A program made the position numbers. Positions 1-3,000 of a stretch of 64,000 bases of DNA are shown piece by piece; positions within the stretch are counted from its first letter, which is position 1, and each line of letters begins with the position of its first letter. Source of the DNA: Saccostrea cucullata (lineage: Eukaryota). Location of the stretch: the NCBI RefSeq assembly GCF_032062105.1, contig NW_026927384.1:124001-188000 (forward strand), given 5' to 3'.

Positions 1-3000
1 GTATTTTAACAGATACATACGTGAAAGCCTATTTGGTAGGCGGATCAAAGGTTATTCAAAAAAAGAAAACCCACACCGTGAAGGGTTCCTTTAGTCCTTT
101 CTTCCGTCGGACAATCAAGTACTCCGCTTGTAATATACATGGCCGGGCAATAAAGGTATGTAATATACAAAGCCGGGCAAAAAAGAGCCCCCTTCTTTTT
201 ATAGAATCTTACAAAAACTTTTGTCTTTTGGTAACATTTTTCGTTTTTTTATTTTAGGTAATTTTATGGGCTCGGCACGGTGCGTTTGATAAAAAACAGT
301 CACTAGGAGAAGCTGTGGTTAAGCTAGATGGCCTTGACCTGATGCATCAGTCCACCAACTGGTACAAACTGTTTCCGCCCGGCGCTACAGACTTTGGCTC
401 AAACGAATCTCTTCACTTCTGGTGAATCGGAGGCTAGCTTCGATCTTCTAAATAAATCGCCGCCTTCCAGAAATATAGTGTGATACTCTGATAGAGTGTT
501 TGAAGGCAAAGGTTTAGGTCTCTTTTAATACAGTTAGGAGAACTTAACTTTGTCACGAGTTTCTACTAAATGGAGGAGAAGTGTGGTTTTCTGAAAACCT
601 AATACAACACTATATCGTCACAAATAAGTTTTATTGAGACTGGCTTTATCGGTCATTACCGCCCTTTTGTGGGACATTCCTGAAAAAAAAGCGACTGCTG
701 GTCCTTATTCCGACTACTGGTGCTTATTTCGTTTCATGAGATATACAAACATGCCTTGAATTACCACGAGATATATATCCGTCAACAAATCACGTGTCGC
801 ATTCTCATCGACCTATAGCATGGAATAAATGCCCTCGACCTATAACAGGGAATAAATGCCCTCGACCTATAGCACTCTTTAGAAATATGCCAGTGATAGT
901 GCATAGTGACTTAATTAAAAAGAACACTGCATATGTTGATCAGAGATTTGATTAATCATCGCTATATCTGAACCCTAAAACCTTTTTTTGGGGGGGCACA
1001 CTATTTTGGTCATCATATTTCAAGACTTTAGACTTTTAACACAGAGTACACGCCTTACACCTATAGCTGGTACCTTTATGCCTCTTTACAGTGCAAAGCC
1101 CCGAGCCTGCTGCACAGATCGTTACCAGTAACATACTTGATGATAGCTTCAGAACATGTGCTGTACAGATATTGGTGGAATCAAAATTTAATCTGCGATT
1201 CAATGGTGCCTTTTAAATTGTCTGTATGATATCATTGTCTGATATTCTTTTTTCCCATTCATCTGATTGGTGCTTTGGTTTATACTGTGGTTTTTTACTT
1301 GACAATACACGTGGCAATTTTAATTTCAATGAAATCAACATGAGGACCTGCATTTGTTAAATACAAGAACATGAAGTACTGATGATATGCATAAAACAGT
1401 ATTAGTTAACTGACTTGTTCAATTTCTTTTATTTTTAATTGTTGCATTTCTACTGTCATTAAATTGTTGTTTAACGAGCTTTGTGTGTGTGGTGTTTTTT
1501 TGTTTGTTTGTTTGTTGGTTTTTTTTTGTGGGGGGGGGGGGGGGGGGGGGTACACGTTGTTCTGCTGAATAATTACTTTTACAAAAAAAAATCGAAGTCT
1601 TATCAAATGATATTTTAGGGGTAAGTAATAAAATCCCGCAATAAAGTTTCACCAAAGTAATAACAAGAAGACAACTTTATAAACTTCCCGTAAACTTCAA
1701 GGTTTTAATTGTTGTTATTACTTTGGTGAACGGGATTTTATTATTAACCCCTAAAATATCATTTGAGTGATTTTAGCTCACCTGAGATGAAACCTCAGGT
1801 GAGCTTTTCTGGTCACATTTTCTCTGTAGTCCGTCCGTCTGTAAACTTTTAACATTTTGGACTTCTTCTCCACCACCACTGGACCAATTTCAACCAAACT
1901 TGCCAAAAAAGCATCCTTTGGTAAAGGGAATTCGAGTTTGTTCAAATGAAGGGCCCCGCTCTCTTCCAAGGGGACATGATTAAGAAAATAGTAAAAATTT
2001 TGTGAAAAATCTTTTTCTCAAGAACCACTTGGTCGGGAAAAATAAAACTGATGTGGAAGCATCATCGGATAGTGTAGATTCAAGTTTGTCCAAATCATTA
2101 CCCCCAGGGGTAGGTTGGGGTCACAATGGACGATCAAAGTTTTACAAAGGAATACATGTATATAGGAAAAAGCTTTAAAAATCTTCTGAAGGAAAACAAA
2201 GCTATGATTAGTAATATGTATAAGGAATCAGGTAGTGTAGATTCAAGTTTGTTCAAATCATGACCCTGGGGGTAGGGTGGGGCCAAAATGAAAGTACAGA
2301 CTCATAGGAATAAAGCCACAGTAAGTCAAAGAAATATTTAAGCATTCTTAGTGTAGATTCAAGGTATTTCAAATTTTCACTACTGGATTGACTTTTGTTT
2401 TTTTCCTAGCTGCAGTGCTCAGGTGAGCGATGTGGCCCATGGGTCTCTTGTTTTATGTGCAGGTCATTCACAACAATGACAGGAATGGGACCCAAAATTT
2501 TGAGCATAAATTGTGATTATTTAATAATCATTAAATCAGACACTCGACGTCTACACAAGTTTATAAAATAAGAACATCTTTTTTAATTTAATCATAAAGA
2601 TTTGTTATTTTGGAAAATGTTTGATTTTTAACGTTTCGTTTTGTTTGTTTTTCACAACCCTTGCTTAGAGGAAATGGCTGAGGCGTCACACAGCGGGGGA
2701 TAACTCTGTTGGAAAATTGAGGACAAACTTCCCATTCATCTCTACCGTAAAGTCGTCAAATAAAAATATACTTATAATTTTATCATCTTTTGAATAAATG
2801 TTCCTTAACTTATCAATTAAAAAGAACATGCACCTTTTGAACAGTAAACTTTAGGACTTGTATCAATATTTTGGCTTATTGTATAAGCTGTTTTCTCCCA
2901 CATTTAAAGCAGTGAATACCTCTGTTCTTTTTATGGTCCATCTGACATGATCAATCAATTGTCTTCTATATACAATAGCAGAGTCAAACATCAAGTGTAG

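What the first reader, a model, noticed from the sequence alone, without database searches (positions are those of the whole stretch)
129..188. Third donor-anchored duplication; possible genome-wide mechanism
Seen: the last 27 nt of the RIMS-like exon plus GTA are duplicated once directly into the intron, and the copy has lost the GT. Three of the four genes here with introns between securely called coding exons thus carry a repeat whose unit straddles a 5' splice site; I noticed none at acceptors. Inference: a splice-donor-linked tandem duplication process (slippage at R-loops or pause sites, or RNA-templated repair) that grows introns and could generate new introns or alternative donors. I do not recall this being described as a system.
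Basis: partly seen in the sequence, partly recalled or inferred. Interest (0 to 1): 0.7.

Follow-up and report, generated by a model that had tools for sequence, protein, structure and literature searches.

The report
Exon-end repeats copied into oyster introns
The end of a coding exon in an oyster gene has been copied once into the intron that follows it, a kind of repeat already described in several human genes, and this window alone cannot show that a special splice-site-linked process makes such repeats.

Summary
The last 27 nt of a RIM-like C2-domain exon (129-155) recur at 159-185, 24 of 27 identical, starting at intron position +4. The copy has no GT. The window comes from an oyster: two exons are 99% identical to Saccostrea cucullata proteins. 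It is not human.

With 16 introns mapped in four genes, 3 of 16 donors carry a copy of the exon tail in their own intron: RIM-like, ClpP intron 3 and CARD/APPBP2-like intron 6. 0 of 16 acceptors carry the mirror arrangement.

This architecture is in print. Minisatellites whose first monomer spans an exon-intron boundary are described for human F7, IFI 6-16, CBS, LMNB2 and PDGF, and in F7 only the most upstream donor is used (PMC1557585).

Best reading: ordinary local tandem duplication, kept only where the mRNA is unchanged. Donor-side copies end up in the intron. Acceptor-side copies would put an AG upstream of the true one.

The statistics are fragile. Donors versus acceptors gives one-sided P = 0.11. 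Enrichment over intron interior ranges from P = 0.0008 to 0.42 depending on the baseline, and the hypothesis was drawn from the same data. A donor-specific mechanism is neither shown nor excluded.

The parts
3..155 (+). Penultimate coding exon of a RIM (RIMS)-like gene, C2 domain, cut by the window start. Ends ...CNIHGRAIK.
   Evidence: Pfam C2 E=6e-5. P0135 tblastn.
129..155 (+). Repeat copy 1: the last 27 nt of the exon.
156..257 (+). 102-nt intron, phase 0, donor AAG|GTATGT, acceptor TTTTAG|. It holds no other GT with at least 6 of 9 matches to the donor consensus.
159..185 (+). Repeat copy 2, intronic, starting at intron position +4. It is 24 of 27 identical to copy 1 and is followed by AGC instead of GTA.
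258..425 (+). Last coding exon (VILWARHG...HFW plus stop), RIM C2B-like.
   Evidence: PDB 2q3x residues 100-142, E=5e-6. P0135 96% identical.
26450..26734 (-). ClpP exon 3. Donor GGG|GTAAGT with the first intron base at 26449.
   Evidence: Pfam CLP_protease. P0013 99% identical.
25997..26470 (-). Second donor-anchored array. The unit is about 29 nt (21 nt exon plus 8 nt intron). There is 1 authentic copy and 10 intronic copies of decaying identity (27/29 down to 17/24). The copy at +36 nt keeps GGGGTAAGT, in frame.
   Evidence: TRF rows 26370-26435 and 26222-26287.
33154..33334 (+). Exon 6 of the CARD/APPBP2-like gene. Donor CCA|GTAAGT with the first intron base at 33335.
   Evidence: P0001 tblastn and junction search.
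33292..33697 (+). Third donor-anchored array. Five 68-nt units (43 nt exon plus 25 nt intron, 96% matches) are followed by two older 34-nt units (9 nt exon plus 25 nt intron). Pseudo-donors are GC at +68 and +136 and an identical GT 9-mer at +204 and +272.

Best explanation
This is a small, old, two-copy case of a known structure: a tandem duplication or minisatellite whose first unit contains the exon end and the 5' splice site. Step 1 (inferred): an ordinary local duplication copied the last 27 nt of the exon to a point 3 nt into the intron. The event was replication slippage, unequal exchange or templated break repair. Such short tandem duplications are common in this sequence. Step 2 (supported by related proteins): the upstream, authentic donor stays joined to the exon and is the one used, so the mRNA is unchanged and the copy is simply extra intron. 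Step 3 (inferred from published splice-site choice rules): the same event across an acceptor would place an AG upstream of the true one and insert sequence into the mRNA. Such events are removed, which explains donors without acceptors. Step 4 (inferred): the exon copy is held constant by selection on the protein. It therefore remains a fresh template, so arrays at donors stay recognisable for longer and can be re-seeded. That would explain the layered arrays in ClpP and the APPBP2-like gene. The intronic copy in the RIM-like gene has no GT and is most likely inert.
For: The repeat is real and local, with 2 sites and 0 expected by chance. The ClpP and APPBP2-like units also occur only at their own loci. 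Short tandem duplications are frequent: 30 merged arrays with score >=50 cover 11.4% of the window, and two more lie within 900 nt of this one at 692-728 and 808-871. Of the arrays with score >=50 that touch the 16 mapped introns, TRF reports two entering an exon (RIM-like, APPBP2-like); with ClpP by alignment, all three are at donors. The first donor is used in all three genes according to related proteins: P0135, P0013 ...[13 protein letters not shown] and P0001 ...KMDQ|TEQAEEML. Published precedent covers F7 IVS7, IFI 6-16, CBS, LMNB2 and PDGF. In F7 only the most upstream of several identical 5' sites is used, and scanning is the accepted model for 3' site choice (PMC1557585, introduction and discussion read). 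The three units differ in length (30, about 29 and 68 nt) and share nothing but the donor consensus. Non-spliced donor-like 9-mers show no independent case: 102 were tested and 6 were positive, namely the 3 true donors, 1 pseudo-donor inside the APPBP2-like array and 2 inside 166-bp satellites.
Against: 3 of 16 donors exceeds what random placement of the observed arrays predicts: 0.48-0.65 expected, P(>=3) = 0.0065-0.021. It also exceeds the non-satellite interior baseline of 1.2% (P = 0.0008). A pure tolerance filter cannot create an excess, so the 'preserved master copy' step is needed, and that step is inference only. The APPBP2-like donor was hit at least twice with different unit lengths (34 and 68 nt), which could mean a local hot spot. 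GTA against AGC is 0 of 3 matches while the rest of the copy is 24 of 27. A clean 30-nt duplication followed by drift is therefore unlikely. Either the GTA was deleted afterwards or the event was a 27-nt insertion. No transcript data from this species were seen. The junctions rest on predicted proteins or on proteins of relatives.
Confidence: 0.68

Rival explanations
1. One reading: a mutational process tied to active 5' splice sites preferentially creates tandem copies that start in the exon tail. Candidates are R-loop or pause-site breakage and RNA-templated repair. Such a process would grow introns from their 5' ends across the genome.
For: 3 of 16 donors against 0 of 16 acceptors. Nominal excess over array-placement expectation, P = 0.0065-0.021, and over non-satellite intron interior, P = 0.0008. 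There are two layers of duplication at one donor. The newest copies lie next to the exon in the APPBP2-like gene. Only real junctions are affected, not look-alike motifs.
Against: The hypothesis was generated from these same three cases in a window chosen for looking odd. Fisher donors versus acceptors is 0.11 one-sided and 0.23 two-sided. If the intron with the 166-bp satellite is counted in the baseline, P = 0.42. Unit lengths and exon start points differ (27, 21, 43 and 9 nt into the exon). No known mechanism is documented in the seven literature searches run. Selection combined with a conserved exon copy gives the same picture.
Confidence: 0.12
2. For the RIM-like event only: it was not a 30-nt slippage but a single 27-nt templated insertion at a break between intron positions +3 and +4. 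The insertion was copied from the adjacent exon tail during end joining of the polymerase-theta type.
For: The copy is exactly the 27 exon bases. The 3 bases after it (AGC) match GTA at 0 of 3 positions. Read without the copy, GTA would be followed by AGC, which also gives a good donor.
Against: No microhomology at the junctions was evident on reading. A 30-nt duplication followed by a 3-nt deletion removing an in-frame second donor gives the same sequence. One sequence cannot separate the two histories.
Confidence: 0.3
3. The reiterated units are kept by selection because they help splicing. Extra U1-binding sites or G-run enhancers just downstream of the true donor would strengthen it.
For: ClpP units carry GGGGG and GGGG runs, and most keep GGTA. 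The APPBP2-like array keeps two perfect pseudo-donors.
Against: The RIM-like copy has neither a GT nor G runs beyond GGG. Copies decay with distance, as neutral sequence would. Two APPBP2-like copies changed GT to GC. No conservation or expression data are available.
Confidence: 0.06
4. The intron itself was created by tandem duplication of an exonic AGGT proto-splice site (the Rogers model; Hellsten 2011; Lehmann 2010).
For: AG|GTA is present at both the donor (AAG|GTA) and the acceptor (TAG|GTA).
Against: The model requires the acceptor AG to come from the second copy and the intron to be about one unit long. Here the copy's AG lies at 184-185, the acceptor is used at 256-257, 72 nt further on, and the intron is 102 nt against a 30-nt unit.
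Confidence: 0.02
5. A chance similarity or an assembly artefact.
For: None found.
Against: 0 of 100 shuffles gave even 2 matches. The copies are 11% diverged, which is not what collapsed haplotypes give. There are three analogous cases.
Confidence: 0.01

Closest known systems
Minisatellites whose first monomer spans an exon-intron boundary: human F7 IVS7 37-bp VNTR, IFI 6-16 intron 2, CBS IVS13, LMNB2, PDGF intron 4 (Borensztajn et al. 2006, PMC1557585; abstract, introduction and discussion read)
   Same: The units are head to tail. The first unit is the exon end plus the 5' splice site, and the rest of the array lies in the intron. The most upstream donor is the one used. The ClpP array (11 units) and the APPBP2-like array (5+2 units) match this closely, including pseudo-donors of identical sequence.
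   Different: The RIM-like case has only two copies and its copy has no GT, so there is no pseudo-site. The exon share of the unit is large (27 of 30 nt, against 4 of 37 in F7). The host is a bivalve. Copy-number polymorphism is unknown. Three cases among 16 introns is far denser than the handful of human genes listed.
Internal tandem repeats at exon-intron boundaries of recently duplicated human genes (De Grassi and Ciccarelli 2009, PMC2812944; passages only; its Table S3 is a supplement and was not seen)
   Same: Tandem repeats that cross exon-intron boundaries and alter intron structure.
   Different: There the repeats create new introns or alternative transcripts. Here the coding sequence appears unchanged.
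Intron gain by tandem duplication of a proto-splice site (Hellsten et al. 2011, PMC3265369, abstract; Lehmann et al. 2010, PMC2891723, abstract and one section)
   Same: A tandem duplication that includes an AG|GT.
   Different: Here the intron already existed. The copy supplies neither the donor nor the acceptor that is used.
Zhuo et al. [quoted passage not shown]
   Same: Judging by its title, tandem arrays as a source of splice sites or introns.
   Different: The content was not read, so no further comparison is made.

Membership tests
Boundary-spanning minisatellite (F7 IVS7 type) | Head-to-tail repeat units | tested here: met
   TRF period 30, 1.9 copies, 88% matches. Only two copies, so this is a duplication and not an array. 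ClpP has 11 units and the APPBP2-like gene has 5+2.
Boundary-spanning minisatellite (F7 IVS7 type) | The first unit contains the last exon bases and the authentic 5' splice site | tested here: met
   The unit 129-158 is 27 exon nt plus GTA. The junction 155/156 is confirmed by P0135.
Boundary-spanning minisatellite (F7 IVS7 type) | The donor sequence is reiterated in the intron (pseudo-5' sites) | tested here: not met
   The RIM-like copy reads AAG|AGC, 2 of 9 matches to the donor consensus. The feature is met in ClpP (+36) and the APPBP2-like gene (+204, +272).
Boundary-spanning minisatellite (F7 IVS7 type) | Only the most upstream donor is used | tested here: inconclusive
   Related or predicted proteins read across the first donor in all three genes. 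No RNA data from this animal were seen.
Boundary-spanning minisatellite (F7 IVS7 type) | Copy number varies between individuals (VNTR) | not testable with these tools
   Only one sequence is available.
Intron created by tandem duplication of a proto-splice site | The donor comes from copy 1 and the acceptor from copy 2, with intron length about one unit | tested here: not met
   The acceptor is at 256-257, 72 nt beyond the end of the copy. The intron is 102 nt against a 30-nt unit.
Alternative 5' splice sites generated by tandem arrays | Transcripts that use the reiterated donors | not testable with these tools
   No transcript data. This is impossible for the RIM-like copy, which has no GT. 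It is possible in principle for ClpP +36 (in frame) and APPBP2-like +204 and +272.
Transposable element or dispersed repeat | Copies of the unit elsewhere | tested here: not met
   The three units occur only at their own loci in the 64-kb window. The rest of the genome was not searchable.

The most novel reading that the evidence does not exclude
In this oyster, arrays seeded at 5' splice sites are a systematic, genome-wide feature and not a local accident. On that reading a junction-specific process repeatedly copies the exon tail plus donor into the intron. The process would be either a break or slippage hot spot at actively spliced donors, or selection for reiterated U1 sites. It would be a major route by which introns grow from their 5' ends and acquire spare donors.
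Probability: 0.13. Interest if true: 0.65.

Novelty: new member of a known kind. Interest (0 to 1): 0.3.

Why it matters
If it is just one more boundary-spanning duplication, it is an ordinary by-product of tandem duplication and shows how such events lengthen introns without touching the protein. In these three introns, 26-57% of the length is made of copies of the exon-intron junction. If the density seen here (3 of 16 donors) held genome-wide, it would point to a donor-linked source of intron growth and of spare splice sites in bivalves. It would also provide many natural test cases for how a spliceosome chooses among identical donors. The seven literature searches found no genome-wide comparison of donors and acceptors.

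Tried and rejected
1. Chance repeat: rejected.
2. Dispersed element: rejected within the window.
3. Non-coding RNA or tRNA: Rfam found 0 matches at gathering threshold and ARAGORN found 0 genes.
4. Hidden extra cases at unannotated donors: scanning all 102 donor-like 9-mers (at least 7 of 9 matches, both strands) gave 6 positives. These were the 3 known donors, 1 pseudo-donor inside the APPBP2-like array and 2 inside 166-bp satellites. Random positions gave 47 of 600 positives.
5. Acceptor-side repeats: the first 45 nt of each exon against its upstream intron gave 0 of 16 above the null.
6. TRF alone under-calls. It reports the ClpP array as purely intronic, because an 8-nt insert separates unit 1 from unit 2. 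Alignment was needed to see the link.
7. The intron-creation model is rejected on geometry.
9. Zhuo et al. 2007 could not be read. PMC10078293 and PMC4039745 were searched for passages and held nothing on donor-spanning repeats.
Orthologous introns and a genome-wide count therefore stayed unchecked.

Full report
**What the window is.** The sequence is AT-rich (27-41% GC) and eukaryotic. The ClpP exon is 99% identical to a Saccostrea cucullata protein (P0013). The RWD exon is 99% identical to another S. cucullata protein (P0132). The source reports both as coming from a contig of the same length. The CARD/APPBP2-like exon finds only bivalve proteins, 11 of 11 hits. The window is therefore oyster, not human. 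All protein searches were made exon by exon.

**The observation.**
- TRF reports 129-185 with period 30, 1.9 copies, 88% matches and score 93.
- Read directly, the exon in frame 3 ends ...TGT AAT ATA CAT GGC CGG GCA ATA AAG at 155 and is followed by GTATGT.
- The last 27 exon bases recur at 159-185 with 3 mismatches. A 3-mismatch search finds exactly these two sites, and 0 of 100 shuffles gave two matches.
- The three bases after the copy are AGC, against GTA after the exon, 0 of 3 matches. The copy therefore has no GT.
- Exon 1 matches Pfam C2, and exon 2 matches the RIM1 C2B chain 2q3x residues 100-142.
- Of 36 hits in the representative search I used only the best, P0135, 96% identical. It reads ...CNIHGRAIK|VILWARHG..., with a gap that is exactly the 102-nt intron.

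**The other two cases and the gene models.**
- I used tblastn with P0001 (1 of 11 hits), P0013 and P0014 (2 of 120 listed) and P0132 and P0134 (2 of 3). A junction search that only counts bases between anchors and requires GT/GC...AG followed.
- Together these gave 16 introns totalling 9145 nt. The RIM-like gene has 1, the CARD/APPBP2-like gene 7, ClpP 4 and the RWD gene 4.
- ClpP exon 3 (26734..26450, minus strand) ends GGG|GTAAGT. Its last 21 nt plus GTAAGTTA form a unit of about 29 nt. That unit is followed by 10 intronic copies down to 25997, with identities from 27/29 to 17/24.
- APPBP2-like exon 6 ends CCA|GTAAGT at 33334/5. A 68-nt unit (43 exon nt plus 25 intron nt) is present five times at 96% matches. 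Two older 34-nt units (9 exon nt plus 25 intron nt) follow.
- None of the three units occurs elsewhere in the window.

**Systematic test.**
- I aligned the last 45 nt of each exon to its own downstream intron. Scores were 19.5, 38 and 18.5 for the three cases and at most 7.5 for the other 13 donors. The same tails against the 15 other introns never exceeded 12.
- I aligned the first 45 nt of each exon to its own upstream intron. All 16 scores were at most 10.0, against a null maximum of 10.5.
- The result is 3 of 16 donors and 0 of 16 acceptors.

**Is that more than chance?**
- Donors against acceptors: Fisher one-sided 0.113, two-sided 0.226.
- Placement model: I placed the arrays actually seen in these genes at random among the allowed positions (wholly intronic, or with one unit crossing a junction). 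This predicts 0.48-0.65 donor-straddling arrays, with P(>=3) = 0.0065-0.021 depending on the TRF score cut-off.
- That model counts the two ClpP TRF rows separately. TRF itself calls only two arrays as straddling.
- Pseudo-junction baseline inside the 13 introns that lack the donor arrays: 14.6% (185 of 1263) have a downstream copy if the intron holding a 166-bp satellite is counted. That gives P(>=3 of 16) = 0.42.
- Without that intron the baseline is 1.2% (11 of 934), giving P = 0.0008.
- The inference is fragile. The hypothesis was formed on these same cases in a window flagged for looking unusual, and how many windows were read is unknown.
- Of 102 donor-like 9-mers in the window, 6 have a tail copy. 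These are the three real donors, one pseudo-donor inside the APPBP2-like array and two inside satellites. Random positions give 47 of 600.
- The motif alone therefore does not attract duplications. Only real exon ends show the pattern.

**GT loss is not general.** The RIM-like copy has no GT. ClpP copy 2 keeps GGGGTAAGT, 36 nt downstream and in frame. ClpP copy 3 has AT, and most older ClpP copies keep GGTA. APPBP2-like copies 2 and 3 have GC, while copies 4 and 5 keep a 9-mer identical to the true donor.

**What is known.**
- Borensztajn et al. 2006 (PMC1557585; abstract, introduction and discussion read) state that several genes hold minisatellites whose first monomer spans an exon-intron boundary, so that the donor is reiterated in the intron.
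- They list F7 IVS7 (37 bp, of which 4 bp is exon), IFI 6-16, CBS IVS13, LMNB2 and PDGF intron 4.
- They show that in F7 only the most upstream of the identical sites is used. They also note that scanning is the accepted model for 3' site choice.
- De Grassi and Ciccarelli 2009 (PMC2812944, passages only) describe tandem repeats at exon-intron boundaries that change introns. Their supplementary table was not seen.
- Hellsten 2011 (abstract) and Lehmann 2010 (abstract and one section) cover intron creation by tandem duplication.
- Seven searches found no genome-wide comparison of repeats at donors and acceptors, and nothing on bivalves.

**How it most likely works.**
- A local duplication copied the exon tail into the start of the intron. 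This step is inferred.
- Because the upstream donor remains contiguous with the exon and is the one chosen, the mRNA is unchanged. This is supported by P0135, P0013 and P0001, which are predicted proteins or proteins of relatives, not transcripts of this animal.
- The mirror event at an acceptor would put a polypyrimidine tract and AG upstream of the true one. If the first AG is preferred, this inserts sequence into the mRNA, so such events are lost. This step is inferred from published rules.
- The exon copy is held constant by selection on the protein. Exon-anchored arrays therefore decay at half the rate of interior arrays and can be re-seeded. This fits the layered APPBP2-like array and the long ClpP gradient, but it is inference.
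- For the RIM-like event, the 0 of 3 match over GTA/AGC, against 24 of 27 elsewhere, argues against a clean 30-nt duplication followed by drift. Either the second GTA was deleted afterwards, removing an in-frame second donor, or the event was a 27-nt templated insertion between intron positions +3 and +4. With the copy absent, GTA would be followed by AGC, which is also a good donor.

**Verdict.**
- The structure is a new member of a known kind. The RIM-like instance is a minimal two-copy form without a pseudo-donor.
- The descriptive claim that such events lengthen introns holds: 27 of 102 nt, about 445 of 1185 nt and about 338 of 596 nt.
- The claim of a novel donor-linked mechanism is not supported by what could be tested, and it is not excluded either.
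- The local density (3 of 16) is the one interesting feature, and a genome-wide count is needed to judge it.

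Noticed in passing
window 42122-42907, 53697-54735, 59830-60901, 62242-63173; also 13776-13826, 36532-36587, 53486-53526, 59579-59616: Four arrays of a 166-bp satellite, with 85-95% matches within each array. One lies inside RWD intron 2. Short (GTCY)n microsatellites lie upstream of two of them (53486-53526, 59579-59616). From memory, this resembles the Helitron-associated satellites reported in oysters.
   Followed up: no
window 43757-43866, 45232-45323, 50162-50182: Interstitial telomere-like repeats, (CCCTAA)n with variants and (GGTTAG)3.5. 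One lies directly beside a short ORF starting MGNTSSKEK (45320-45523, minus strand), which has no Pfam match.
   Followed up: no
window 31004-31048 and 32220-32305: Two arrays of a 16-nt unit in inverted orientation, about 1.2 kb apart, inside APPBP2-like intron 4. They look like the ends of a foldback or MITE-like insertion.
   Followed up: no
window 692-728 and 808-871: Two more short tandem duplications (19 nt x 1.9 and 27 nt x 2.4) in the likely 3' UTR just downstream of the RIM-like stop. This shows how common this size of duplication is locally.
   Followed up: partly
window 27422-27440 (minus strand): Upstream of the ClpP exon 2 acceptor used by S. cucullata isoform X2, the frame stays open. 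It reads five extra residues that align with the Magallana gigas protein, suggesting an alternative acceptor about 15 nt upstream.
   Followed up: no
window 1530-1550, 21579-21614, 43440-43455, 49221-49236: Long G or C homopolymer tracts: G21, G36 at 88%, G16 and C16.
   Followed up: no
window 17817-18212 and 19679-20680: A 30-nt array (9.5 copies) is flanked on both sides by a 10-nt ACTATAGTTA array. A separate 57-nt satellite spans about 1 kb.
   Followed up: no
window 3345-4355 (-), 15804-16454 (+), 39864-41552 (+), 8143-8982 (-): Apparently single-exon ORFs: a protein kinase, a Ras-family GTPase, a B-box/NHL TRIM-like protein, and a 280-residue ORF with no Pfam match.
   Followed up: partly
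P0012: A 437-residue ClpP-like protein from ENA has the highest bit score (234) but only 67% identity to the 95-residue exon. This suggests more than one matching stretch, that is, a duplicated ClpP domain.
   Followed up: no
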